A stretch of 32,000 nt of DNA from the NCBI GenBank assembly GCA_041659445.1, contig JBAZYG010000001.1, positions 300,001 through 332,000 on the forward strand. Reading direction: 5' to 3'. Below, piece after piece: positions 262 through 23,297 of this stretch. The notes beneath the pieces were generated by a model. That model made no database searches, was not told the origin of the DNA, and saw only the letters and a list, made by a program, of their open reading frames with translations. Position 1 is the first letter of the stretch; each line of letters begins with the position of its first letter. This DNA is from Candidatus Saccharimonadota bacterium (GTDB lineage Archaea; Nanobdellota; Nanobdellia; Pacearchaeales; GW2011-AR1). The position numbers and the translations under genes were made by a program.

Positions 262-1029
262 ATGAAAAAGGAAAATCAATTAATACAAATAATTGATGTC
301 TGGAAAAAATACGATATGGGAAAGAATAATTCACTTATTGTGTTAAGAGATATTAATCTAAGCATTTATGAAAAAGATTTTGTCGCAATTACAGGACCTT
401 CTGGTTCTGGTAAATCAACAATGGTTAATATTGTCGGAGCTTTGGATAAACCCTCTTGGGGTAAATTAATATTAAAAGAAAAAAATGTTTCAAAAATGGA
501 TGAATCTTCTTTAGCATTCTTAAGAGGAAAAACAATTGGATTTATCTTTCAGCAATTTAATTTAATTCCTACATTAAGTGCATTGCAAAACGTTATGCTT
601 CCTATGGAAATTTTAGATATAAATGAAAAAGAAGCAAAAAAAAGAGCAGAAGAACTATTAATAATGCTTGGACTTGGAGAAAGATTAAACCATAAACCAA
701 ATGAATTATCTGGAGGACAACAACAACGTGTAGCTATTGCAAGATCTCTTTCAAATGACCCAGAAATTATAATTGCAGACGAACCCACTGGGAATTTAGA
801 TAGTAAGACTGGAGAATTTGTAATGGATTTTTTAGGAAAAATGAACGAAAAAGGAAAAACCATAATCTTAATAACGCATGATTTAAATTTAGTTCATTAT
901 GCTAAAAAGATAGTATACCTTAAGGATGGAAAAATTGAAAAAATAATTACAAATAAAAGAAATAAATTGTGGACATCAAGTCCACTCCCTTTAAAAAGAA
1001 AATATTTTTTTAATAAAAATGAAAAATAA
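262..1029 (+). CDS. ABC transporter ATP-binding protein, MacB/LolD-like
   Basis: Walker A GPSGSGKST, Q-loop FQQFNL, ABC signature LSGGQQQRVAIARSL, Walker B IIIADEPTGNLD, H-loop ITHD. The C-terminal ~25 aa tail runs through the next gene's promoter. Confidence 0.95.
   Translation: MKKENQLIQIIDVWKKYDMGKNNSLIVLRDINLSIYEKDFVAITGPSGSGKSTMVNIVGALDKPSWGKLILKEKNVSKMDESSLAFLRGKTIGFIFQQFNLIPTLSALQNVMLPMEILDINEKEAKKRAEELLIMLGLGERLNHKPNELSGGQQQRVAIARSLSNDPEIIIADEPTGNLDSKTGEFVMDFLGKMNEKGKTIILITHDLNLVHYAKKIVYLKDGKIEKIITNKRNKLWTSSPLPLKRKYFFNKNEK
969..997 (+). promoter_or_regulatory. Internal promoter for the 1019 gene: palindrome GTGGAC-atcaa-GTCCAC (contains AAGTCCA), 5-nt gap, TTTAAAAA
   Basis: Perfect 6-bp inverted repeat at 969-974/980-985. 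AAGTCCA at 978-984. TTTAAAAA at 990-997 starts exactly 29 nt before ATG 1019. Confidence 0.55.
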
Positions 1030-2047
1030 AAAAAATATTTTTTTGTTATTATTTTTAATTAGTTTGGCTTTAATTCAAATTCAATTTATTTCTTCAGAAG
1101 AAGTCAATTATTCTATAAATTATTTATACGATGGCATTCAAATTTCTTCATTAAAATATGAACCCTATCCTGTAAACCCCGGAGAATATTTTGATGTATG
1201 GATACAAGTAGAATTAGGTTCTTCTGTAAATTATGCTAAATTTGAATTAATAGAAGAATTTCCTTTTAGTTTAGATGAGAATGAAAATGCAACAAGAGAA
1301 TATGAAGATTTTTCTGGGGCTGTAATAATTCATTATAAAGTAAGGGTATCTAAAGATGCAGTAGAATCTGAAAATTCTTTAAAAATTGGAATTAGTTCAA
1401 ATAAATATACTACTGGAGATGTTATTTATGAACTTCCAATAAGTATTGAGAATGCACAAACAGATTTTGATTTAGTAGTTCAAGACTCAACAACTTCTGA
1501 GATTTCTTTAGCAATTGCAAATATTGGAAAAAACACTGCAAACTCTATGATTGTTAGAATTCCAAACCAAGAATATTATCGAGTTACTGGAACAAATGGA
1601 CAAATGGTAGGAAATTTGGAATCTGGAGATTATACCATAGTAAGTTTTAGCTTGACTTCAATTGGGAAAAATTCAGAAAATCCTTTAATAGTTCAAATAG
1701 ATTACACAGATAGTATTGGAGAAAGAAGAAGTTCACAGAAAGAAGTATATATTAATTCTTTATATTCTAATATAAATGAATCTCAAAATTCAGAAATTCC
1801 TGAAAATTTTCCTGGAAACTTTTCACAAGATTTCCCAATTAGGAAAAAAATAAAGGTTTGGCCATATGTTCTTGCAGGAGTTTTGATAATAATTTTAATT
1901 GGATTTTTGATTTATTCCAAATTTCTAAAGAAAAAAAAATCTAAAATTAAAAAATTAAGTGAAATGAAAAATGTGAAAACTAATGAGATTCCTGATTGGA
2001 TGAAAAAAGCAAAAGATAAGGAAATAAATTCTTCTTTTAAAAAATGA
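1019..2047 (+). CDS. Exported, C-terminally membrane-anchored protein with CARDB/COG1361-like (S-layer-type) beta domains
   Basis: N-terminal signal-like helix (IFLLLFLISLALIQ). CARDB-like segment (ISLAIANIGKNTANSMIVRIPNQ). C-terminal TM (WPYVLAGVLIIILIGFLIY) followed by a Lys-rich tail. Lies between the ABC ATPase and the FtsX permease. Confidence 0.7.
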   Translation: MKNKKNIFLLLFLISLALIQIQFISSEEVNYSINYLYDGIQISSLKYEPYPVNPGEYFDVWIQVELGSSVNYAKFELIEEFPFSLDENENATREYEDFSGAVIIHYKVRVSKDAVESENSLKIGISSNKYTTGDVIYELPISIENAQTDFDLVVQDSTTSEISLAIANIGKNTANSMIVRIPNQEYYRVTGTNGQMVGNLESGDYTIVSFSLTSIGKNSENPLIVQIDYTDSIGERRSSQKEVYINSLYSNINESQNSEIPENFPGNFSQDFPIRKKIKVWPYVLAGVLIIILIGFLIYSKFLKKKKSKIKKLSEMKNVKTNEIPDWMKKAKDKEINSSFKK

Positions 2048-3288
2048 AATTAAAAAAATCGTTTCATTTAGCATGGAATATTTTAATTCATAGTAAACTA
2101 AGAAGTTGGTTAACTATCATCGGAATTGTCATTGGAATTGCTGCAATTGTTTCAATTGTTTCAATTAGCATCGGTGCAAAACAGCAATTAGAAAATCAAC
2201 TTGGAAATCTTGGAGCAGATATTCTTACAATTTCACCAGGATTTTCAAAAGCATCTGGAAATTTCGGTTTTGTTGGAGGGCCTTCAGGAATGGAAAAAAC
2301 ATCTTCAAATTCTGAATCTAAAAATTTAACCTCAAAAGATTTGGTTGTTTTAAAAAATATAGACAATGTAAAATATGCAATGGGATATGTTTCTTCTTCA
2401 GGAGATTTAACTTATCTTGGAGAAACGGCATCTGTAAGTATTTCTGGTGTTGATGAAAATGTGTGGGATGAAATAACAACAGAAGAATTATCCTCTGGGC
2501 GAATGCTTATAAATGGAGATACTTATTCCATAGTTATTGGCGAAAGACTTGCAACATCTACTTTTGATGAAATTCCTTTAAATTCAAAAGTTACAATTGA
2601 GGGTAAAACTTTCAAAGTAGTAGGAATACTAAAAGATGGAAATTCTGTTTATATACCTATAGAAACTGCAAGAAATATATTAGATGATGTTGGCGAAGAA
2701 GAATTTGATTCTATTTCTATAAAAATTGAAGATGTTACTTTAGCTGACGAAACCGCTGGAAATATTACAAAAAAATTAATGATGTCTCGTGGAATTTTAA
2801 ATGAAGACGAAAAAGATTTCACAGTTACAAACCCGTCTTCAATGCAAGAAACAATGCAGGAAACAATGAATAGCATGTCAATTTTTCTCGGAGCAATTGC
2901 AGCAATTTCACTTCTCGTTGGTGCAATAGGAATAGCAAATACTATGTTTACTTCTGTTCTAGAAAAAACAAAAGAAATAGGTATAATGAAAGCTATTGGG
3001 GCAAAAAATAAAGATGTCCTTTTAATATTTTTAATAAATTCTGGATTAATTGGATTTGTTGGAGGATTTGGGGGGGTTATATTGGGGATTTTTGGTTCAG
3101 GACTAATTGGATCAATGGTATCTTCTTCTGGAACAGGGATGACTAGGATGTTTGGAAGCACAGCATTAACACCAGGGTTATTAATTGGAGCATTACTTTT
3201 TTCCGTTTTTATCGGAATGATATCAGGAGCAATACCTGCATATAGGGCTTCAAAATTAAAACCGGTTGATGCACTAAGATATGAATAA
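2044..3288 (+). CDS. ABC transporter permease, MacB/FtsX family
   Basis: N-terminal TM, a ~230-aa extracytoplasmic domain, then a C-terminal three-TM FtsX-type domain (KEIGIMKAIGAKNKDVLLIFL..., ...AYRASKLKPVDALRYE). ATGA overlap with the upstream gene. Confidence 0.9.
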   Translation: MKLKKSFHLAWNILIHSKLRSWLTIIGIVIGIAAIVSIVSISIGAKQQLENQLGNLGADILTISPGFSKASGNFGFVGGPSGMEKTSSNSESKNLTSKDLVVLKNIDNVKYAMGYVSSSGDLTYLGETASVSISGVDENVWDEITTEELSSGRMLINGDTYSIVIGERLATSTFDEIPLNSKVTIEGKTFKVVGILKDGNSVYIPIETARNILDDVGEEEFDSISIKIEDVTLADETAGNITKKLMMSRGILNEDEKDFTVTNPSSMQETMQETMNSMSIFLGAIAAISLLVGAIGIANTMFTSVLEKTKEIGIMKAIGAKNKDVLLIFLINSGLIGFVGGFGGVILGIFGSGLIGSMVSSSGTGMTRMFGSTALTPGLLIGALLFSVFIGMISGAIPAYRASKLKPVDALRYE

Positions 3289-7685: not shown

Positions 7686-8612
7686 ATGATGGATTGGAAA
7701 AAAGTTTTGAGCATTCTAGCATTTTTGTTCATTATAGGCTTGCTTTTATTATATTGGTATTTTCCCTCTGTGCCTTCAGATTATTCTATTAATAAAAATT
7801 CTAATTTTAGTAAAGAGCCAATTAATTCAAGCTTTAATTCAAGTTTAATGCAATTTTATGAAAATATGAGATTTCCTTTAGAAAATATTTCTTATTCAAT
7901 TGAAAATACTTGTAATTTGCAAAAAAAAGCAGATATGGAAAGAGCATTTGAAATTATTGAAGAAAAAACATCTCTTAATTTTTATAGTTCAAATCAAGGA
8001 CAAATACATATTTTTTGTGAGGATAGAAATAAAATAGATTCAGAAGGTTTGTTTGTTGCTGGAGAAGGAGGACCTGCAAATATTACTCTTGGAAAATATT
8101 TCAGTGTAATTGAAAATGGACAGATTTTACTTATAAAAAGTTCAGAGTGTCCAAACCCGAATATTGCAATACATGAATTACTTCATGTTTTAGGATTTCA
8201 ACATTCAGATAATTCAAATAATATTATGTATCCTGTTAGCGAATGTGATCAAATTATCAGCGATGATATTTTAATTAAAATACAGGAATTATATTCTTAT
8301 CCAAGTCTTCCGGATTTGGAATTTGAAGGGGTTTCTGTTAGCATAAAAAACAGAATGTTAGACTTTAACTATAGTATTAGAAATGAAGGATTGATTAAAT
8401 CTGAAAATTTTGTGGTTGGAGTTTATGTTAATGATAAAAAAATTAAAGAAATTGAAACTGAAGGGTTGGAAATGGGTTATGGACAAAAAGTCAGTGTAGA
8501 AAATTTCTTATTAAGTCAAATGAAAATAGATGAAATCAAGTTTGTGATTGAAGGGGATTTTGAAGAGTTAAATAAAAAAAATAATGAGATTACTTTGAAT
8601 GTAACAAAATAA
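7686..8612 (+). CDS. Membrane-anchored metzincin (matrixin/M10-like) zinc metalloprotease with a C-terminal CARDB-like domain
   Basis: HELLHVLGFQHS matches the HExxHxxGxxH zinc motif, followed by the Met-turn NIMYP. N-terminal TM ILAFLFIIGLLLLYWYF. C-terminal beta domain (VSVSIKNRMLDFNYSIRNEGLIKSENFVVGVYVND). The second ATG at 7689 fits the 29-nt TATA rule (TTTATAAA 7660-7667). Confidence 0.85.
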   Translation: MMDWKKVLSILAFLFIIGLLLLYWYFPSVPSDYSINKNSNFSKEPINSSFNSSLMQFYENMRFPLENISYSIENTCNLQKKADMERAFEIIEEKTSLNFYSSNQGQIHIFCEDRNKIDSEGLFVAGEGGPANITLGKYFSVIENGQILLIKSSECPNPNIAIHELLHVLGFQHSDNSNNIMYPVSECDQIISDDILIKIQELYSYPSLPDLEFEGVSVSIKNRMLDFNYSIRNEGLIKSENFVVGVYVNDKKIKEIETEGLEMGYGQKVSVENFLLSQMKIDEIKFVIEGDFEELNKKNNEITLNVTK

Positions 8613-13300: not shown

Positions 13301-14686
13301 TTATTCGTCTTTCATATCAGCAGCTTCTGCAACAAAGTAAGCTCTGTTTGATGCTACTTCTTTGATTTTTCCGTCTTTCTCGAATATGGCTGTTGTTGGA
13401 GGTAATGCAAATCTACCTAAAACTCCAATCTTTGATGAATAAATTATGTAATTAATTACTCTTGATTCTCCTTTTTCTAATTTGTCAAAGTTCCATTGTA
13501 ATAATCTCTTTGAAGCATCCATTTTTGTTGGAGCGTTTCCTAAGAATTTTTCATAAAGCTTTACTAAAGGAGGCAATCTTTCCATAACATTAACTTTTTC
13601 AATGTATTTTTTAGCATGAATATTTACAGTTACCTTTAATGCAAATTCTCCGCCTTTTGCTCTCACGAATGAAATGTGTTTCTTTAATACAAGATATCTA
13701 TTCACAGATTTTTTAGTGAAAACAACAATCACGATTATTAATATAATAACCAAGAATGGAATTATCCAATTTGTTCGAACAATTATTTGTTGTGTCTCAC
13801 CTGGTTTTATTTCTTGAAGCCAGCTATAATAAATTTTTCCACCTTGTCTTGTAACAGAAGTTGGTTCTGGACTAAAACTTGTGAAAAGTCTTGAAAAAAC
13901 ATTTTTCTTTATTGTTGTTTCTGTTGTAACAATTACATTTCCTTCATTTGTCTTTTCAATTATTTTTTTATCGATAATAAAACCATATTCTCTTTTTGAA
14001 GAAGTTAAAATATCTTTTTCAACAAATTCAATAGGAGCTTGAGCTTCAGCAGTTATACCATTGTAATTTATTGTTGCAGTTACAGTATAAAATCCAGCCA
14101 TTAATTCTTTGAAATCATCTTTATTTAATTCAACTGTAAATGTTTTTTTCTCTTTATAATTTAAAGAAACTTTTTCCTCGAAATCAAAAAATGAAGATTT
14201 GAAATTAACATTCACGTCTTCAAAATTGTAATCTATTTTATTATATAAATAAACTTGCATTGTTTTTGTCTCAGGATCAATATTCTGAGAACCAATTTCA
14301 AATGCATCTTCTAAATTTACTACATTCACTGTAATTTGTTTGCTTATTTCAGATTTGTCTAATGCTTGAATAACCAAATCAAATGTTGAATAACCTAAAT
14401 CTGTATTTGAACTAGGATAAATTTTTAATTGAACATCTTTTGTTTCACCATGATTTATTGTAATTCTTCCAGAAGGTTCCAAGCCTAAACCAAAAAAAGT
14501 GTAAAAAAGAAAACTGTTTGAAGGTCCGTTATTTGTAATTCTTAAATTAATTATTGCAGGTTGATTTAAATCCACAATCATTACTTCGTTTGAAGGTTGT
14601 TTTTCAATTGTTAAATCTATTGGTGTAACAAATGGAATTATTAATAACGCTAGAACAAAAACAAACATCAAATTTCTCTTTTTCAT
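13301..14686 (-). CDS. Exported membrane protein with CARDB/NEW3-like beta domains and one internal TM
   Basis: I prefer the start at 14686 (MKKRNLMFVFVLALLIIPF, signal-like), with TATTTAAA about 30 nt upstream; the ORF track starts at 14719. Segments such as PAIINLRITNNGPSNSF are CARDB-like. TM helix IIPFLVIILIIVIVVFT. Confidence 0.7.
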   Translation of the reverse strand: MKKRNLMFVFVLALLIIPFVTPIDLTIEKQPSNEVMIVDLNQPAIINLRITNNGPSNSFLFYTFFGLGLEPSGRITINHGETKDVQLKIYPSSNTDLGYSTFDLVIQALDKSEISKQITVNVVNLEDAFEIGSQNIDPETKTMQVYLYNKIDYNFEDVNVNFKSSFFDFEEKVSLNYKEKKTFTVELNKDDFKELMAGFYTVTATINYNGITAEAQAPIEFVEKDILTSSKREYGFIIDKKIIEKTNEGNVIVTTETTIKKNVFSRLFTSFSPEPTSVTRQGGKIYYSWLQEIKPGETQQIIVRTNWIIPFLVIILIIVIVVFTKKSVNRYLVLKKHISFVRAKGGEFALKVTVNIHAKKYIEKVNVMERLPPLVKLYEKFLGNAPTKMDASKRLLQWNFDKLEKGESRVINYIIYSSKIGVLGRFALPPTTAIFEKDGKIKEVASNRAYFVAEAADMKDE

Positions 14687-14765
14687 GTTAAAGAAAATGA
14701 ATTTTAGATATTTAAACATTTCTATGGAAAATTTTTAGAGATTTTTAGAAAATTATTTAATCTTT

Positions 14766-15806: not shown

Positions 15807-16310
15807 TTAATGTCTTCCTTCTAAATCAAGGTATGCTTTTGCTTGTCCTAAGAATTCATCACATGCAGTTGCAACTTTTCCTTCAAATGTACTAATTCTG
15901 TCTGTAATTACCCATTTTTCATAAATTGCTCTTAAGAATTTTCTATATGCTGTTGTTTCAAATTTCCCATCATAGTCTCGAACAAGAATTCCTTTGATTG
16001 AAACTTCAACGCTTCCTTTGTTTGATTTTAACTTTACTCCGTCTTGATTCATCTCAACATCAACTAAACCAAGAATTCTGAATTTTACTTTTACATCTAT
16101 TTTAAAATAATCAGTATATTTTTTAGAACCTTCCCATTCAACGTCAATATCTTTGGAGTTTCCTTTTATTTTTTCCGAATATTTTGATTCAACTAAATCC
16201 AAACCTGTTTCTTGACTTAGCCATTCATAACAAAATTTATAAAAATCTTTGAATGAAAAAACGCCATCATACTTTACCTTACTCGAATAAATGTCTTGTT
16301 TTTCCGCCAT
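15807..16310 (-). CDS. Hypothetical protein (167 aa)
   Basis: Clean ORF, divergent from the thermosome gene. No motif recognised. Confidence 0.65.
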   Translation of the reverse strand: MAEKQDIYSSKVKYDGVFSFKDFYKFCYEWLSQETGLDLVESKYSEKIKGNSKDIDVEWEGSKKYTDYFKIDVKVKFRILGLVDVEMNQDGVKLKSNKGSVEVSIKGILVRDYDGKFETTAYRKFLRAIYEKWVITDRISTFEGKVATACDEFLGQAKAYLDLEGRH

Positions 16311-16440
16311 CTTTTATGTATTTAAGACAAAAATATTATTTAAATATTCTTCGGATTTGGAAAAATTTATAAATAGTTTGGAATTTGGGTTTTATTAGTG
16401 AGATACAATCCTAATATAGATTAATTTCATTACAACAATC

Positions 16441-16448
16441 TTTAAATA
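16441..16448 (+). promoter_or_regulatory. Proximal TATA box of the thermosome gene
   Basis: TTTAAATA starts 29 nt upstream of ATG 16470. Confidence 0.6.
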
Positions 16449-16469
16449 ATTACAGAATTATCTTAAAAC

Positions 16470-18089
16470 ATGGTGAAAAGTCCTGATTTATTTTCTGAAG
16501 ATATTTCTAGAATGATTGGTAGAGATGCACAACGAAATAATATTCTAGCTGCAAAAATGGTTGCAGACATAGTCAAAACAACTTTAGGTCCAAAGGGAAT
16601 GGACAAAATGCTGGTTTCTCCTACTAATGATATTATTATCACAAATGATGGCGTGACAATTTTAGATGAAATGCAAATTGAACATCCTGCTGCAAAAATG
16701 ATGGTTGAAATTGCTAAAACTCAAGAAAATGAAGTTGGAGATGGAACAACAACTGCAGTTATGCTCGCTGGAAAACTTTTGGAAAATGCAGAAAAACTTT
16801 TGGATTCAAAAATTCATCCAACAACAATTACTAAAGGTTATAATATTGCGCACGAAAAAGCTCAAGAAATTTTGAGAGATATTTCTTTAGAAATAAGTCC
16901 TGAAAACGACGCTGTTTTAAAACAAATTGCAATGACTGCTATGACTGGAAAAGGTGCAGAAAATTCCAAGGAAAAATTTGCAGAAATTATTGTCGAGGCT
17001 GTTAAAATGATTTCAGAAAATGGAAAGGTTGATTTGAATAATATTAAAATTGAAAAAATTATGGGAAATGGAATTAAAGATAGTGAATTAGTGAAAGGAA
17101 TTGTTTTAGATAAAGAAAGAATTTCTCAAGAAATGCCGAAGATGATTAATAATGCAAAAATTGCTTTGATTGATTTTCCTTTAGAAATAAAAAATCCAGA
17201 AATAGATACAAAAATTTCAATTTCAACTCCTCAGCAATTGCAAGATTTTATCGAAGAAGAAGAAAATTCAATCAGAACTATGGTTGAAAAAATTTTAGTT
17301 ACAAATGCAAATGTTTTGTTTTGTCAAAAAGGCATTGATGATTTTGCAAGTTATTTACTTTCTAAAGAAGGCGTTTATGCTTGTCGAAGAGTTTCAAAAA
17401 GTGACATGGAAAAATTAGCAAAAGCTACGAGTGGAAAAATTGTTAGTAATTTAAATGAATTATCGTCTAGGGATTTGGGTGAAGCAGATGTTGTTGAACA
17501 AATTAAAACGAAAAATGAAACTTTTAGTTATATTAAAGGATGCAAAAATCCAAAAGCTGTGACAATTCTTGTTCACGGCGGAACAGAACATGTTATTGAT
17601 GAAATTGAAAGAGCAATTATCGACGGGTTGGGTGATGTTGCTTCTGCAGTTGAAACTCGTTTAGTTGTTCCAGGAGGAGGAGCAATTGAAATTGAATTAT
17701 CAAGAAGATTAAAAGAATTTTCTCAAATGTTTCATGGAAGAGAACAATTAGCAATTTTTGAATTTGCAAATGCACTTGAATTTATTCCAATTACTCTAGC
17801 TGAAAATGCAGGACTTGATCCAATAGATATTTTAACTCAATTAAAAGCAAAACACGACGCAGGAGAAATGAATTTTGGATTAAATTTATTTACAAATTCT
17901 ATCGAGAACGCTTTGGGAGCAAAAATCATTGAACCATACAAAGTAAAAAGCCAAGCCTTGACTTCTGCTAGTGAAGTTGCAATTATGATTTTAAGAATCG
18001 ACGATGTTATTGCTTCAAAACCCAGTAAAAAAGGAAATATGAATCGTTCTGATTTTGGAAAAGGATTTGATATTGGAGGATTGGAATAA
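16470..18089 (+). CDS. ths: Thermosome subunit (group II chaperonin, Cpn60/TCP-1 family)
   Basis: [27 protein letters not shown] (ATP-binding) and VPGGGAIE motifs. 539 aa, typical length. Confidence 0.97.
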
Positions 18090-18532
18090 TGAAATTAGAA
18101 GAAATCAAATTTGGATATATTGATAGAAATGCAAATCCAAAAATTACAAAATTTGATAAAAAAAATTTAAAAAAAGAAGATAAATTTATACAAATAAAAA
18201 TTGAAGAAAATGAATATATCTTTGTTGGAGATCTTTATCATAGAAGAATTTTAAAAGAAGCTTTAGAATTTTTTGGAATAGAATATAAAACAAAATTTAA
18301 TAGAATGCATCAAGAAATGCCTTTAGGAATTGGAAATTCTTATCAAATAATTGGTGCTGGAAAAATAAAACTTTCAAATGAAAAATTAAAGTTTTATGAT
18401 GCTAGTTCAGATTATTTTGATTTAGTTAAGGGTGCAAATAAGCGAAATTTAGAAGATTTTTTTGGAAAAGTAAATGTGATTGACGAAAATGTTCTAGAAT
18501 ATCCTTCTTTTTTAGTAAATTTTAATATTTAA
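18089..18532 (+). CDS. Hypothetical protein, paralog 1; Janus/PHPT1-like motif pattern (putative phosphohistidine-phosphatase fold)
   Basis: The start overlaps the thermosome stop (TAATG), with GGAGGA 8 nt upstream. Motifs FIQIKI, LYHRRIL, YQIIGAGKIKL and FYDASSDYF are collinear with human PHPT1 FKYVLIRV, EYHADIY, ECLGGGRISH and VYGYSMAYG as I recall them. Confidence 0.6.
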   Translation: MKLEEIKFGYIDRNANPKITKFDKKNLKKEDKFIQIKIEENEYIFVGDLYHRRILKEALEFFGIEYKTKFNRMHQEMPLGIGNSYQIIGAGKIKLSNEKLKFYDASSDYFDLVKGANKRNLEDFFGKVNVIDENVLEYPSFLVNFNI

Positions 18533-18573
18533 ATCACAATAATACTTATAAATAGCTCTTTACAAAAAAAATT

Positions 18574-18972
18574 ATGGAATTAGAAGATAAATCCCAATTT
18601 GAACATAATTTTTTAGGTTTTGACATTAATGAACTGAGTCAGGATTTTATACAAATTTATATAAATAATTGTCCTTATTTTCAGTTTATACGAAGAGAAT
18701 CTATGGGTAGCGCAAAACATTCAGAAGCACTTGAAAAAATACTTGAAAAATTCAAAGTAAATTACAATAAAATAAGAATACATGGAAAAATGGTTCCTGA
18801 AAAAAATAAAGATGGCGAATATCAACTTGTAGGTGCTGGAAAGTGTTTTAAGATGGTTGATTATTTTGAATTTATTGGAAATAGCTCAGTTTATAATTGC
18901 GAACCAAACAAAAAACATTTTGATGAAACTAAAAAACCAGAAGGAATAAAATTTATTTGCCCAAAAGGTTGA
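18574..18972 (+). CDS. Hypothetical protein, paralog 2 of the Janus/PHPT1-like pair
   Basis: Shares FIQIYI, AKHSEAL, YQLVGAGKCFK and FIGNSSVYN with paralog 1. Own promoter: CAATAATACTTATAAA, with the TATA 29 nt upstream. Confidence 0.6.
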   Translation: MELEDKSQFEHNFLGFDINELSQDFIQIYINNCPYFQFIRRESMGSAKHSEALEKILEKFKVNYNKIRIHGKMVPEKNKDGEYQLVGAGKCFKMVDYFEFIGNSSVYNCEPNKKHFDETKKPEGIKFICPKG

Positions 18973-19011
18973 AATAAATAAAATTAAAAACCAATTTTTC
19001 TAAAATAAAAT

Positions 19012-20139
19012 ATGAATTATCACATCATCCTAACAGAAAGATGCAATCTTAAATGTAAATATTGTTATGAAAAATCTATGAATGAATTTGATAATGGATT
19101 ACAAAAAAAATGGGATTATGATAATACTGTTCCTTTTGATTCTGAAGTTAAACCTGAAAATCTTAAAAATTTTTTAAAACCAGGAGATAGATTGATTTTT
19201 TATGGAGGAGAACCTTTGATTATGCTTGAAAAAATAAAAGAAATTATGGATTTTCTCAAGAATTCTAAAATTAAATTTTGTATTCAAACAAATGGCATGC
19301 TCTTGAATTTAATTCCAAAAGAATATTTAATAAAATTCGAAAAAATATTAATTTCTATTGATGGAGATGAAAAAACAGATAATGAGAATAAAGGAAAAAT
19401 ACATTATAATCAAGTTCTAAAAAATTTGCAAATAATTAGAGAAAATGGGTTTAAAGGAGAAATTGTTGCAAGAATGGTAATTTCTCCACCAAAATCTTTT
19501 GATGTTTACAATCAAGTTTTACATCTCGTGAATTTAATAAAAAAAAGATATTTAGATTCGATTCATTGGCAGATAGACGCAGGATTTTATAAAAATGATT
19601 TTAACGAAAAAGAATTTTCAAATTTTGTTAATAAATATAATCATGAAATTACTAGATTAATTAATTGGTGGATTAAAGAAATAAAAAACGGAAAAATTTG
19701 GAAATTATATCCTTTTTTAGGCATTCTAAATAGATTAATGAAATGGGATAAAGAAACTAAAATTCATTGTGGAGCAGGTTATGCGAATTATACTATAACT
19801 ACTTCTGGAAAAATTTCTGCTTGTCCAATTTTAAATTCAGTTAAAAACTTTTATTGTGGAGATTTGAACACACCTAAAGAAAAACTTAGGAAAATTTATT
19901 GTGAAGGAAATTGTTTGAATTGTAACTTCTCAAAAATTTGTGGAGGAAGATGTTTATATTGGAATTATTCTCGACTTTGGCCAAAAAAAGGGGATGAACT
20001 AATTTGTAAAACAATAAAGCATTTAATAAAAATTCTCGAGGACAAAATTCCAGAAATAGAAAAAATAATTCAAAAAAATATTTTTTCAGAAAAAGACTTT
20101 AAATATGAAAAATATTTTGGCCCAGAAATTATACCCTAG
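19012..20139 (+). CDS. Radical SAM enzyme with a C-terminal SPASM domain (putative peptide/protein-modifying maturase)
   Basis: CNLKCKYC matches the CxxxCxxC radical SAM cluster motif, and FYGGEPL is a SAM-binding motif. The C-terminus has C-x12-G-x4-C (CGAGYANYTITTSGKISAC), then CLNC-x5-C-x3-C (CLNCNFSKICGGRC) and a trailing Cys, giving the 7-Cys SPASM signature. Confidence 0.92.
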   Translation: MNYHIILTERCNLKCKYCYEKSMNEFDNGLQKKWDYDNTVPFDSEVKPENLKNFLKPGDRLIFYGGEPLIMLEKIKEIMDFLKNSKIKFCIQTNGMLLNLIPKEYLIKFEKILISIDGDEKTDNENKGKIHYNQVLKNLQIIRENGFKGEIVARMVISPPKSFDVYNQVLHLVNLIKKRYLDSIHWQIDAGFYKNDFNEKEFSNFVNKYNHEITRLINWWIKEIKNGKIWKLYPFLGILNRLMKWDKETKIHCGAGYANYTITTSGKISACPILNSVKNFYCGDLNTPKEKLRKIYCEGNCLNCNFSKICGGRCLYWNYSRLWPKKGDELICKTIKHLIKILEDKIPEIEKIIQKNIFSEKDFKYEKYFGPEIIP

Positions 20140-20178
20140 TATAGTTATCTTTATAAGTAGAATTGATAGTTTATTTTT

Positions 20179-20421
20179 ATGGATTTAGAAAAAATAAAGG
20201 AAATTCCAGAAGAAAAATTAACAAAAATCTTGAGAGAAATAGACGAGAAAGTAACTGAAGCTATAGCAGAACAAGCACTTTATGCCGAAGGTTGGAGAGA
20301 TAGTTTATCAGAAGAAAGTTTAGATTTTTCTAAAGAATTTGATTTTTATAAACTAACAAATGCCGAAGCCCACCAAAAAATAATAGAAATAAAACAATAT
20401 ATTCGAAATGGATCAAAGTAA
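20179..20421 (+). CDS. Hypothetical small acidic protein
   Basis: 80-aa ORF. TTTATAAG at 20150-20157 is 29 nt upstream. Confidence 0.55.
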   Translation: MDLEKIKEIPEEKLTKILREIDEKVTEAIAEQALYAEGWRDSLSEESLDFSKEFDFYKLTNAEAHQKIIEIKQYIRNGSK

Positions 20422-20632
20422 AGAAAATAACTTAGATAACCTAATAATTTTGAAAAAAAGATTAGATGAAATTTTTATAGAAGGAGACGAACTTTCAAAT
20501 TGGAAACCTGGTTTGTCGCCAGAACAAAGAAAGATTGTTGAAATTTATGGTTGGGAAGACTTAAATAAATATAATTTATATTCTGAAATTTCAAAAGAAA
20601 TCTTAAAAGGACTCAAGCAAAAACATCCTTAA
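20408..20632 (+). CDS. Hypothetical small protein
   Basis: 74-aa ORF overlapping the upstream gene by 14 nt. Its 3' end overlaps the convergent TatD gene by 20 nt. Confidence 0.5.
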   Translation: MDQSKENNLDNLIILKKRLDEIFIEGDELSNWKPGLSPEQRKIVEIYGWEDLNKYNLYSEISKEILKGLKQKHP

Positions 20633-21350
20633 AATTTTTTTCTATTTGTTTTTCTACAAGCTCTTCAGAAGTTTTCCATATTTCTGAAATTTTTTTTATT
20701 GATTCTTTAATAAATGCAGACTGATTTTTCGTTTCCTTGTAAGGAGACAAAAACGGCGAATCAGTTTCTGTCAAAACTTTTTCTTTTGGAATTTCTAAAA
20801 TCATCTTTTGAAAATGTTCACTTCTTACAATATTTGTTGGAATTGAAAAATAGCATCCTAATTCCACTGCTTTTTTGACTAAATTAAAATTTCCTGAAAA
20901 ACAATGCAAAATTATTTTTAATGAAGAATATTCTTTTAAGATTTCCAAAACCTCTTTTTCTGCTTTTCTTGAATGTACTATCACTGGTAATCCATTCTCT
21001 CTTGCAATATTCAATTGAAATTTTAAAACTGATTCTTGAACTTTTTTATCTTTTCCTTCTTGAAAGTCCATACCAATTTCACCAATTGCAGTGATTGAAT
21101 TTTTGTGTTTTTCAAAAAAATCTTTGAAATTAAATAAATCATGTCTTGTAATCTTATCAGAAGGATATATTCCAATTGCCAATCGAACAATATCATAATT
21201 CTTCGCAATTTCAAGATTTTTTATACAAGAAATTAAATCAACTGAATTTGTAATTACGCTTGAAACATTTTCTTTCTCTGCATTTTTTATTAAATCAACT
21301 AATTCCTCTTTCTTAAAAAAATCTAAATGTGCATGAACATCGTATTTCAT
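20613..21350 (-). CDS. tatD: TatD-family metal-dependent hydrolase/DNase
   Basis: N-terminal DVHAHLDF (HxH). Later GEIGMD, VIVHSR and ILHCFSG motifs are typical of TatD amidohydrolase-fold nucleases. Confidence 0.9.
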   Translation of the reverse strand: MKYDVHAHLDFFKKEELVDLIKNAEKENVSSVITNSVDLISCIKNLEIAKNYDIVRLAIGIYPSDKITRHDLFNFKDFFEKHKNSITAIGEIGMDFQEGKDKKVQESVLKFQLNIARENGLPVIVHSRKAEKEVLEILKEYSSLKIILHCFSGNFNLVKKAVELGCYFSIPTNIVRSEHFQKMILEIPKEKVLTETDSPFLSPYKETKNQSAFIKESIKKISEIWKTSEELVEKQIEKNFKDVFA

Positions 21351-22844: not shown

Positions 22845-22931
22845 TTTTAATAAAAATAAATTTCTTCTTAAAAGCAAATTACTTATTCAAAATAAAAAGA
22901 TTATTAAAATAAGATATATACTCTTTTTTGT

Positions 22932-23003
22932 GCGTGAGTAGTTCAGTGGTTAGAATATTTCGTTGCCAACGAAGTGACCCGGGTCCGAATCCCGGCTCGC
23001 GCA
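22932..23003 (+). tRNA. tRNA-Gly (GCC)
   Basis: Hand-folded. Acceptor GCGTGAG/CTCGCGC, D arm GTTC-AGTGGTTA-GAAT, anticodon arm TTTCG-TTGCCAA-CGAAG, T arm CCGGG-TCCGAAT-CCCGG, A73. 72 nt, no intron, no encoded CCA. Confidence 0.93.
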
Positions 23004-23009
23004 TTCTGT

Positions 23010-23226: not shown

Positions 23227-23297
23227 GGCCCGTTAGTCTAATGGCAGAACACTTCGTTTACACCGAAGAAGCGGAGGTCCGATTCCTCTACGGGCCA
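23227..23297 (+). tRNA. tRNA-Val (TAC)
   Basis: Hand-folded. Acceptor GGCCCGT/ACGGGCC, anticodon arm CTTCG-TTTACAC-CGAAG, T arm GGAGG-TCCGATT-CCTCT, A73. The D stem has one mismatch. 71 nt. Confidence 0.88.

What the first reader, a model, noticed from the sequence alone, without database searches (positions are those of the whole stretch)
16356..20632. Candidate composite system: chaperonin, two PHPT1-like proteins, rSAM/SPASM and two small acidic proteins on one strand
Six consecutive same-strand genes run from 16470 to 20632 with short gaps: overlap, 41, 39, 39 nt, overlap. The block combines a protein-folding machine, two putative phospho-protein phosphatase-fold proteins and a protein-modifying radical enzyme. 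It is bounded by divergent and convergent genes on the other strand. I know of no described system with this composition. It could be a protein quality-control or post-translational modification module.
Basis: inference. Interest (0 to 1): 0.7.

Follow-up and report, generated by a model that had tools for sequence, protein, structure and literature searches.

The report
Thermosome operon with PHPT1-like partner
The six neighbouring genes are real but are not one system: only the chaperonin and a small phosphohistidine-phosphatase-like protein look functionally tied, and the other genes are independently transcribed neighbours.

Summary
They are not one module.

- **Separate promoters.** These genomes carry a TATA box about 30 nt before most start codons. 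By that signature the block splits into four units: thermosome+p147, p132, the rSAM, and p80+p74.
- **The rSAM.** This TIGR04084 radical SAM/SPASM enzyme is a conserved gene with no constant partner. It lies next to the thermosome in 32-33 of 80 related genomes, always behind its own promoter.
- **p80 and p74.** They look like coding genes but have no relative anywhere I searched.
- **The PHPT1-like call holds weakly.** Five sub-threshold tests all rank PHPT1/Janus first, and the catalytic His, Lys and Ser equivalents are conserved.
- **The real unit is thermosome plus this small protein.** In 10-11 loci, covering three divergent subfamilies and both gene orders, the two genes abut or overlap (10 of 11 gaps are 2 nt or less). 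One locus has no rSAM nearby.

More distant family members are unlinked to the thermosome. The biochemical function is untested.

The parts
15807..16310 (-). p167: conserved 167-aa protein of unknown function, divergent from the thermosome. A flank, not part of the unit.
   Evidence: Homologs lie in the same divergent position in 26 of 81 loci. No Pfam, NCBIfam or PDB match.
16432..16449 (+). BRE/TATA-like promoter of the thermosome (acaacaat-ctttaaataa), with the TATA starting 30 nt before the ATG
   Evidence: Read from the sequence. The motif peaks at -30/-29/-28 across the loci: 416 occurrences against 1164 genes.
16470..18089 (+). Thermosome (group II chaperonin) subunit, 539 aa
   Evidence: PF00118, E 2e-179. 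NF041082 742 bits (cutoff 450). TIGR02339 691 bits (cutoff 671).
18075..18079 (+). GGAGG Shine-Dalgarno-like site inside the thermosome 3' end, about 10 nt before the p147 start
   Evidence: Read from the sequence. There is no TATA motif before p147.
18089..18532 (+). p147: PHPT1/Janus-like small protein. Its start overlaps the thermosome stop (TAATG), so it is read as co-transcribed and translationally coupled.
   Evidence: Family of 152 clusters. AF2 model pLDDT 95.4. PHPT1 is the top Foldseek hit (prob 0.72) and the top or only PDB sequence hit. hhalign against PHPT1 gives 53%. The same coupling to the thermosome is seen in related loci.
18535..18554 (+). BRE/TATA promoter of p132 (cacaataata-cttataaata), with the TATA starting at -29
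   Evidence: The same consensus sits before other window genes, for example 25863 and 26337.
18574..18972 (+). p132: second, divergent PHPT1-like paralog with its own promoter
   Evidence: BLASTP against p147, E 3e-4. E 1.4e-29 against the family HMM. It keeps the conserved His, the GAGK motif and the S..Y motif (sequence).
18983..18992 (+). TATA-like promoter of the rSAM gene (attaaaaacc), starting at -29
   Evidence: A 'TTAAAAA'-type motif sits at about -29 before the rSAM in L007, L013, L016, L017, L024, L027, L040, L072 and L086.
19012..20139 (+). TIGR04084-family radical SAM/SPASM enzyme, 375 aa. Independent transcription unit; substrate unknown.
   Evidence: TIGR04084 272 bits (cutoff 225). 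Invariant C11/C15/C18 and seven SPASM cysteines. 2755 homologs at E <= 1e-10. At least 534 hits in GTDB species genomes.
20149..20157 (+). TATA-like promoter of p80 (ctttataag), starting at -30
20179..20421 (+). p80: acidic 80-aa protein with no detectable relatives (pI 4.8, no Cys)
   Evidence: Coding-like composition. No family hits. No relatives in the 80 loci, metagenome contigs or viral contigs.
20408..20632 (+). p74: acidic 74-aa protein with no detectable relatives. It overlaps p80 by 14 nt and has no promoter of its own, so it is read as coupled to p80.
   Evidence: Not significantly similar to p80.
20613..21350 (-). TatD-family hydrolase, convergent flank. Syntenic in the clade, not part of the unit.
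   Evidence: PF01026, E 4e-62. TIGR00010 206.8 bits (cutoff 206). In 13 of the 81 compared loci, usually downstream of the rSAM.

Best explanation
The run of six genes is a syntenic neighbourhood in a Pacearchaeota/Woesearchaeota genome, made of four separately promoted transcription units. It is not one system.

**The one conserved functional pairing** is the thermosome gene with a small protein of a previously undescribed archaeal family, remotely related to the eukaryotic phosphohistidine phosphatase PHPT1/Janus.
- *Shown:* here p147 starts on the thermosome stop codon behind a GGAGG site and has no promoter of its own.
- *Shown:* in relatives the family member sits either just after or just before the thermosome gene, with gaps of -14 to +2 nt in all but one locus (+12 nt).
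- *Inferred:* the small protein is made together with the chaperonin. It either removes N-linked phosphate (P-His or P-Lys) from the thermosome or its clients, using the conserved His as general base as in PHPT1, or it acts as a binding cofactor.

**The other genes**
- p132 is a diverged duplicate that has acquired its own promoter.
- The TIGR04084 rSAM/SPASM enzyme is an independent, widely conserved gene with an unknown, probably protein, substrate. It is simply syntenic with the thermosome in this clade.
- p80 and p74 are a genome-specific pair of genes with no relatives, sitting in a variable slot.
For: **Transcription units**
- A TATA-like motif peaks sharply at -30/-29/-28 from the ATG: 416 occurrences against 1164 genes across 81 loci, versus about 12 at any other position. 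In the window 24 of 46 genes have it.
- The thermosome, p132, the rSAM and p80 each have this motif. p147 and p74 do not.

**Thermosome and PHPT1-like family**
- Family member directly after the thermosome: gaps of -1, +1, +1, +1, +2, -14 and +1 nt (window, L016, L017, L040, L022, L086, P0006 contig). L022 is only a weak family match (E 1e-3).
- Family member directly before the thermosome: gaps of 0, -4, -4 and +12 nt (L081, L087, L098, L013). The TATA then lies before the small gene, and an SD-like GGAGG lies before the thermosome in L081 and L098.
- Only 26% of same-strand neighbour pairs in these loci have gaps of 5 nt or less.
- The linked members belong to at least three divergent subfamilies.
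- L087 has the pair but no rSAM adjacent.
- Five of 12 look-ups anchored on the small protein landed next to a thermosome gene.

**PHPT1 likeness**
- Family profiles searched against PDB sequences return PHPT1 as the only or top hits (E 0.6 and 0.09).
- hhalign gives 53% probability over 96 columns and aligns K21, H53 and S94 with conserved K, H and S.
- The Foldseek top hit for the pLDDT-95 model is PHPT1 entry 2nmm (prob 0.72).
- PF05005 (Janus/Ocnus) is the only Pfam family hit by more than one member.

**rSAM independence**
- It has its own promoter, 31-53 nt after the preceding gene, in the 9 of 14 loci where the motif was flagged.
- Elsewhere its neighbours are a GATase, a Dph6-like protein, FtsZ, SecE, LemA and HisRS.

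**p80 and p74**
- No homologs found.
Against: - Every PHPT1 similarity score is individually below significance. The window proteins do not reach Pfam's PF05005 threshold.
- Only about 6-7 of 33 thermosome-bearing loci carry the small protein, so the chaperonin does not need it.
- More distant family members, including one from an Aenigmarchaeota contig, are not next to a thermosome. The linkage could therefore be inherited synteny within one clade.
- Promoters are inferred from motif position only; no transcript data were available.
- The Arg78 equivalent of PHPT1 is not conserved across the family.
- No assay or interaction evidence exists.
Confidence: 0.6

Rival explanations
1. One reading: all six genes form one co-regulated module for protein quality control or post-translational modification. 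The chaperonin folds, the phosphatase-fold proteins regulate, and the rSAM modifies, with the two acidic proteins as substrates or adaptors.
For: - The genes are on one strand with short gaps.
- Thermosome-rSAM adjacency recurs in 32-33 of 80 species-level genomes.
- The order thermosome, family member(s), rSAM recurs in L016, L017, L040, L086 and the P0006 contig.
Against: - Four separate promoters are predicted.
- Opposite-strand genes are inserted between the thermosome and the rSAM in L001, L002, L003 and L032.
- The rSAM lacks thermosome adjacency in Methanofastidiosa, in records labelled Thermococci and in many DPANN genomes.
- p80 and p74 have no homolog anywhere searched.
- No complete six-gene arrangement was found in any other locus.
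Confidence: 0.07
2. Pure neighbourhood with no functional links at all. The PHPT1-like genes are fast-evolving accessory genes that entered the thermosome transcription unit once in an ancestor. They persist, move and duplicate locally by descent, without acting on or with the chaperonin.
For: - The distribution is patchy, about a fifth of thermosome loci.
- The slots around the thermosome and the rSAM hold many unrelated lineage-specific genes.
- Distant family members are unlinked to a thermosome.
Against: - The coupling persists across at least three subfamilies only 25-30% identical to each other, and in both gene orders. In each case a 0-4 nt junction is rebuilt.
- Most genes in these genomes keep their own promoter, so sharing the thermosome promoter is the exception.
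Confidence: 0.22
3. The rSAM/SPASM enzyme post-translationally modifies one of its neighbours, either the thermosome or the PHPT1-like protein encoded directly upstream, in the way anSME-like maturases act on folded protein substrates.
For: - The rSAM has no RRE or N-terminal domain and is the size of anSME, which is compatible with a protein substrate.
- A family member lies 36-53 nt upstream of the rSAM in at least seven loci.
- The thermosome lies upstream in 32-33 of 80 loci.
Against: - The rSAM occurs in at least 534 species genomes, most without the small protein. Among the 80 loci examined many lack an adjacent thermosome.
- p147 has no cysteine.
- L087 keeps the small protein and thermosome pair without an adjacent rSAM.
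- The promoters are separate.
Confidence: 0.08

Closest known systems
PHPT1 / Janus-Ocnus family (Pfam PF05005; human 14-kDa phosphohistidine phosphatase, PDB 2AI6, 2HW4, 2NMM)
   Same: - Similar size (about 120-150 aa).
- Same order of secondary-structure elements (beta-beta-alpha-beta-beta-beta-alpha-beta), comparing the model with the PHPT1 topology as I recall it.
- hhalign places the family's conserved Lys, His and Ser on PHPT1 K21, the catalytic H53 and S94 of the phosphate-binding loop. The G-x-G and S-x-x-Y motifs also align.
- PHPT1 is the top hit by sequence profile, by profile-sequence comparison (hhalign), by fold search and by Pfam member scan.
   Different: - All scores are below significance, and the window proteins fail the Pfam threshold.
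- The family is archaeal. The taxa identified are DPANN: Pacearchaeota/Woesearchaeota, plus one Aenigmarchaeota contig.
- There is an extra beta-hairpin insertion between helix 1 and the G-x-G strand. The p147 subfamily also has N- and C-terminal extensions.
- The Arg78 equivalent is variable.
- An invariant Gln (the FxQ motif) has no PHPT1 counterpart.
- The gene is coupled to a chaperonin gene, which to my knowledge is not described for PHPT1.
TIGR04084 (rSAM_AF0577) radical SAM/SPASM family. Nearest characterised relatives are PapB-type ranthipeptide maturases and anSME.
   Same: - Scores above the family cutoff.
- CxxxCxxC motif plus a full seven-Cys SPASM motif.
- Compact architecture of about 370 aa without an RRE domain, as in anSME.
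   Different: - No function is known for the family, and no paper in the held library mentions it.
- It falls far below the cutoffs of PapB (100 vs 340 bits), anSME (53 vs 349) and viperin (66 vs 180).
- It has no conserved precursor gene next to it.
- Its C-terminal tail, FEYEKYFGPEIIP, is almost invariant.
Group II chaperonin cofactors (prefoldin in archaea; phosducin-like proteins for eukaryotic CCT)
   Same: A small protein genetically tied to a group II chaperonin, which suggests co-expression with it.
   Different: There is no sequence or fold similarity to prefoldin or phosducin. No interaction has been shown. It is present in only some genomes of one clade.

Membership tests
Thermosome / group II chaperonin | Full-length match above the curated cutoffs of the thermosome models | tested here: met
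   NF041082 742 bits (cutoff 450). TIGR02339 691 bits (cutoff 671). PF00118 covers residues 31-517.
TIGR04084 radical SAM/SPASM | HMM score above the curated cutoff | tested here: met
   272 bits against a cutoff of 225.
TIGR04084 radical SAM/SPASM | CxxxCxxC radical SAM cluster motif and the seven-Cys SPASM motif for two auxiliary clusters | tested here: met
   C11, C15, C18 and C253, C271, C301, C304, C310, C314, C332 are invariant in 14 homologs.
TIGR04084 radical SAM/SPASM | Catalytic activity and substrate | not testable with these tools
   No characterised member. No paper in the library.
PHPT1 / Janus-Ocnus (PF05005) | Pfam gathering threshold | tested here: not met
   p147 and p132 give no hit. 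Only 3 of 76 family members hit PF05005, best E 0.042.
PHPT1 / Janus-Ocnus (PF05005) | Same fold as the solved PHPT1 structures | tested here: inconclusive
   The model has pLDDT 95.4. The Foldseek top hit is 2nmm_C with prob 0.72, E 0.56 and TM 0.38 (query) / 0.50 (target). The order of secondary-structure elements is the same.
PHPT1 / Janus-Ocnus (PF05005) | Catalytic His53 and the phosphate-binding Ser94 loop | tested here: met
   hhalign aligns the conserved His (at least 90% of members) with H53, Ser (at least 90%) with S94 and Lys with K21. The alignment itself has only 53% probability.
PHPT1 / Janus-Ocnus (PF05005) | Phosphohistidine or phosphoramidate phosphatase activity | not testable with these tools
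   Needs an enzyme assay.
RiPP-type rSAM maturase system (precursor plus maturase) | A conserved precursor gene adjacent to the maturase | tested here: not met
   No gene family is constant on either side of the rSAM across 80 loci. The upstream gap of 31-53 nt holds only a promoter.
RiPP-type rSAM maturase system (precursor plus maturase) | N-terminal RRE / peptide-recognition domain | tested here: not met
   The radical SAM motif starts at residue 11, and the Pfam Radical_SAM match starts at residue 5.
Single operon / composite six-gene system | One transcription unit, and a gene set conserved across genomes | tested here: not met
   Four predicted promoters. The full gene set was found in no other locus.
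Anti-phage systems (prokaryotic viperin; Qat system via QatD) | Scores above the curated cutoffs, and presence of the partner genes | tested here: not met
   Viperin 66 bits (cutoff 180). QatD 148 bits (cutoff 230). PADLOC hit only pVip (rSAM) and QatD (TatD); the five small proteins scanned had no hit.

The most novel reading that the evidence does not exclude
The PHPT1-like proteins are dedicated partners of the DPANN thermosome. In this reading they are an archaeal branch of the PHPT1/Janus fold, co-translated with the chaperonin. They either hydrolyse N-linked phosphate (P-His or P-Lys) on the thermosome or its clients, or they dock on it as a new kind of group II chaperonin cofactor. That would place PHPT1-type phosphatases and protein N-phosphorylation in archaea that largely lack two-component systems.
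Probability: 0.25. Interest if true: 0.65.

Novelty: new variant of a known kind. Interest (0 to 1): 0.4.

Why it matters
- **It removes a false lead.** The proposed six-gene system for quality control or post-translational modification is not a system.
- **It leaves a smaller, testable one.** This is an undescribed family of about 150 clusters at 50% identity, with no Pfam model. It looks like the phosphohistidine phosphatase PHPT1, which I know mainly as a eukaryotic family. In Pacearchaeota/Woesearchaeota it is wired into the thermosome transcript.
- **If the link is functional,** it would give a first accessory factor specific to a DPANN chaperonin and a handle on N-phosphorylation in archaea.
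- **It flags TIGR04084** as a highly conserved rSAM/SPASM enzyme (55-65% identity among the 120 closest homologs) that still has no known substrate.
- **It gives a practical tool.** The sharp -30 TATA signature separates co-transcribed genes from merely adjacent ones in these genomes.

Tried and rejected
1. **TIGR04084 as RaSEA, the archaeosine rSAM.** Rejected. NCBI annotation uses a separate RaSEA name, RaSEA is not among the best 25 NCBIfam hits shown, and the family is still unnamed. The original RaSEA paper is not held.
2. **TIGR04084 as GMGT synthase (Gms).** Rejected on architecture. Gms homologs are over 420 aa and have an N-terminal six-helix domain. Here the radical SAM motif starts at residue 11. 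I had no Gms sequence, so this was not tested by alignment.
3. **Defence island (viperin plus QatD).** The scores are far below the curated cutoffs and no partner genes are present.
4. **Viral or mobile origin of the small proteins.** No PHROG hits, no BFVD fold match, and no viral contig relatives of p80 or p74.
5. **p80 and p74 as paralogs or a split gene.** BLASTP E 6.2. No protein of about 150 aa related to them lies downstream of the rSAM elsewhere.
6. **First AF2 model from six sequences** (pLDDT 74). It gave no meaningful Foldseek hits and was superseded by the 76-sequence model.
7. **Scans that could not run or found nothing.** Metagenome scans with p80 and with the p147 subfamily found no relatives.
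8. **The sigma-70 promoter scanner was not used,** because it does not apply to archaea. I used a TATA position histogram instead.

Full report
**1. Observation**

All six + strand ORFs are present at the stated coordinates, with the stated spacing.

| Gene | Coordinates | Length | Junction to next gene |
|---|---|---|---|
| thermosome | 16470-18089 | 539 aa | 1-nt overlap |
| p147 | 18089-18532 | 147 aa | 41 nt |
| p132 | 18574-18972 | 132 aa | 39 nt |
| rSAM | 19012-20139 | 375 aa | 39 nt |
| p80 | 20179-20421 | 80 aa | 14-nt overlap |
| p74 | 20408-20632 | 74 aa | – |

- The flanks are a divergent 167-aa gene (15807-16310, -) and a convergent TatD gene (20613-21350, -).
- The window has about 26% G+C. 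The exact p147 sequence is annotated in NCBI as a hypothetical protein of a Candidatus Pacearchaeota archaeon (DPANN).
- A run of six same-strand genes is not unusual here; longer runs occur in the window.

**2. Identities**

- The 539-aa protein is a thermosome subunit: NF041082 742 bits (cutoff 450) and PF00118 over its full length.
- The 375-aa protein belongs to TIGR04084 (rSAM_AF0577): 272 bits against a cutoff of 225. In 14 homologs C11/C15/C18 and seven SPASM cysteines are invariant, and the C-terminal tail FEYEKYFGPEIIP is almost invariant.
- This rSAM has no N-terminal recognition domain. It scores far below the cutoffs of every characterised maturase model. Its closest solved structure is only a generic radical SAM match.
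- p147 and p132 are weak paralogs with no Pfam or NCBIfam family.
- p80 and p74 are acidic (pI 4.8 and 5.4) and contain no cysteine. Their composition is coding-like. They hit nothing in Pfam, NCBIfam, PADLOC or PHROGs.

**3. Is 'PHPT1-like' right?**

- An exhaustive HMMER search with a p147-subfamily profile found 152 clusters at 50% identity, mostly proteins of 115-165 aa.
- Conserved positions (p147 numbering) are Q35, H51, P78, Y85, G89, G91, S106 and Y109.

Five independent tests all rank PHPT1/Janus first, although none is significant alone:

| Test | Result |
|---|---|
| 76-sequence profile vs PDB sequences | only PHPT1 entries returned, E 0.6 |
| 90-sequence short-class profile vs PDB sequences | PHPT1 first, E 0.09 |
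| hhalign vs human PHPT1 | 53% probability over 96 columns (residues 9-120) |
| Foldseek with the AF2 model | top hit PHPT1 2nmm_C, prob 0.72, TM 0.38 (query) / 0.50 (target) |
| Pfam scan of 76 members | PF05005 (Janus/Ocnus) is the only family hit by more than one member (3 of 76, best E 0.042) |

- The hhalign alignment places the family's Lys, His and Ser on K21, the catalytic H53 and S94 of PHPT1.
- The AF2 model built with the 76-sequence alignment has pLDDT 95.4.
- I accept remote homology with moderate confidence, about 0.7. Membership of PF05005 by its own threshold is not met, and activity is untested.
- I found no paper describing archaeal PHPT1 homologs.

**4. Is the neighbourhood conserved?**

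I anchored on the rSAM and fetched 80 loci from GTDB species genomes. Most are Pacearchaeota, Woesearchaeota and Nanoarchaeota; some are Methanofastidiosa and MAGs labelled Thermococci. I called genes and clustered them in scripts.

- **Core synteny.** Thirty-two or 33 loci show p472(-), p167(-), sometimes a CBS-domain gene(-), thermosome(+), 0-3 variable genes, rSAM(+), variable genes, then TatD(-) and/or EamA(-).
- **Variable slots.** Between the thermosome and the rSAM the slot may be empty, or hold the PHPT1-like family, or hold unrelated genes. Some of those are on the opposite strand (L001, L002, L003, L032).
- **PHPT1-like family.** It is detected in L008, L013, L015, L016, L017, L019 and L040, and weakly in L022.
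- **p80 and p74.** They have no homolog in any locus. They also have none in JGI metagenome contigs or viral contigs.
- **rSAM elsewhere.** In the other lineages the rSAM sits next to a GATase and a Dph6-like protein, or FtsZ and SecE, or LemA, or HisRS. It has no constant partner on either side.
- **rSAM tree.** On a rough rSAM tree, thermosome adjacency is concentrated in one large part of the tree with scattered losses. The PHPT1-like genes are patchy within that part.

**5. Contexts anchored on the small protein**

| Protein (locus) | Arrangement |
|---|---|
| P0160 (L081/L082) | CBS(-), family member, thermosome, rSAM |
| P0127 (L086) | thermosome, family member, rSAM |
| P0006 | thermosome, family member, a 130-aa gene (probably a paralog; no DNA to check), rSAM, EamA(-) |
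| P0161 (L087/L088) | p472(-), p167(-), CBS(-), family member, thermosome; no rSAM adjacent |
| P0157 (L098) | p167(-), CBS(-), two small genes, family member, thermosome |
| P0176, P0182, P0221, P0265, P0164, P0143, P0150 | no thermosome next to the gene |

- The P0182 contig is Aenigmarchaeota, judged from the names of its TBP cluster.
- P0176 has a tandem paralog beside it.
- The linkage is therefore specific to the Pacearchaeota/Woesearchaeota-type synteny group.
- Within that group it covers at least three subfamilies only about 25-30% identical to each other, and both gene orders.

**6. Transcription units**

- A TATA-like motif ([ACT]TT[TA]A[TA]A) shows a sharp peak at -30/-29/-28 from the start codon. 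There are 416 occurrences against 1164 genes of at least 100 aa across the 81 loci, versus about 12 at any other position. This indicates mostly leaderless, individually promoted genes. In the window 24 of 46 genes have the motif.
- Within the block, the thermosome (16440), p132 (18545), the rSAM (18983) and p80 (20149) each carry the motif at the right distance.
- p147 has none. It starts on the thermosome stop codon (TAATG), about 10 nt after a GGAGG site. p74 has none and overlaps p80.
- The short gaps of about 40 nt that suggested an operon are therefore just long enough to hold a promoter.
- In 9 of the 14 loci inspected, the rSAM has a 'TTAAAAA'-type motif at about -29, 31-53 nt after the preceding gene, even when that gene is the thermosome.
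- The PHPT1-like gene instead abuts the thermosome. Gaps are -1, +1, +1, +1, +2, -14 and +1 nt when it is downstream, and 0, -4, -4 and +12 nt when it is upstream. When it is upstream, the TATA lies before the small gene, and in two loci a GGAGG-like site lies before the thermosome.
- Only 26% of same-strand neighbour pairs in these loci have gaps of 5 nt or less.

**7. Interpretation**

- *Shown:* gene identities, synteny frequencies, junction lengths and motif positions.
- *Inferred:* promoters, co-transcription, the PHPT1-like fold and active site, and any biochemical role.
- My best reading has four transcription units. The thermosome plus PHPT1-like gene is the only conserved functional pairing.
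- The small protein most likely acts on or with the chaperonin, either as a P-N phosphatase or as a binding cofactor.
- The rSAM is an independent conserved enzyme with an unknown, probably protein, substrate. p80 and p74 are a genome-specific pair.
- The pairing is optional: about a fifth of thermosome loci have it. It could still be inherited synteny, which is why I give that rival 0.22.

**8. Alternatives checked**

- RaSEA was rejected.
- GMGT synthase was rejected on architecture.
- The viperin and Qat defence systems were rejected.
- A RiPP precursor-maturase logic was rejected.
- No paper mentions TIGR04084.
- No paper in the library describes phosphohistidine on the thermosome: the only paper holding both words mentions phosphohistidine once, and I did not read it.

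**9. Verdict**

- The composite-system interpretation is not supported.
- The PHPT1-like call and a chaperonin link are partly supported.
- Novelty lies in a new archaeal variant of the PHPT1/Janus kind, coupled to a group II chaperonin gene.
- Interest is 0.4.

Noticed in passing
window-wide, and L001-L080: A TATA-like motif sits at a fixed distance, starting 28-30 nt before the ATG. It is often preceded by 'caATAAT'. There are 416 occurrences against 1164 genes, which implies mostly leaderless, singly promoted genes in these DPANN genomes.
   Followed up: yes
window 15807-16310 (-), and 13301-14719 (-): p167 (no family, no PDB match) and the 472-aa protein p472 each have homologs in 26 of the 81 loci, upstream of and divergent from the thermosome. 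A CBS-domain gene often lies between them and the thermosome. Their function is unknown.
   Followed up: partly
window 20101-20139 (rSAM C-terminus): The last 13 residues of the rSAM, FEYEKYFGPEIIP, are almost invariant in 14 homologs at 54-65% identity. This could be a docking or regulatory tail.
   Followed up: no
L005 8286-8567; L096 39-320; L098 1211-1513: A Cys-rich small protein of about 93 aa (motif HCIECKFC) occurs in L005 (between the thermosome and the rSAM) and in L096 (just upstream of a PHPT1-like gene). A 100-aa Cys-containing ORF at the equivalent position in L098 may be related. It may be another accessory gene of this neighbourhood.
   Followed up: no
L089 6001-6372 and 6405-6779; P0006 contig; window 18089-18972: The PHPT1-like family is often present as two tandem, divergent paralogs, even in a marine contig with no thermosome nearby. 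This hints at a heterodimer.
   Followed up: partly
L015 9126-9467; L025 9081-9422; L093 4495-4941: A small GNAT acetyltransferase sits between the thermosome and the PHPT1-like gene in L015 (4-nt overlap with it). In L093 one sits directly upstream of a PHPT1-like gene with no thermosome present.
   Followed up: no
protein P0225 (1662 aa): A very long protein matched the family profile in five stretches (E 2e-5). Whether this is a real repeat of the fold or a spurious match was not examined.
   Followed up: no
window 22931-23004 and 23227-23297: tRNA-Gly(GCC) and tRNA-Val(TAC) genes lie here. The 41-aa ORF at 22879-23004 (-) lies antisense to tRNA-Gly and is probably spurious.
   Followed up: partly
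L021, L053 (record titles): Two MAGs are titled 'bacterium'. Both encode the archaeal rSAM, and L021 also carries the p167, thermosome and TatD synteny. The taxonomic labels are probably wrong.
   Followed up: no
window 262-3288 and 7686-8612: There is a MacB/FtsX-type ABC transporter module with a CARDB-domain protein. A matrixin/astacin-like metalloprotease with a CARDB domain also lies here. Both are probably cell-surface functions.
   Followed up: no
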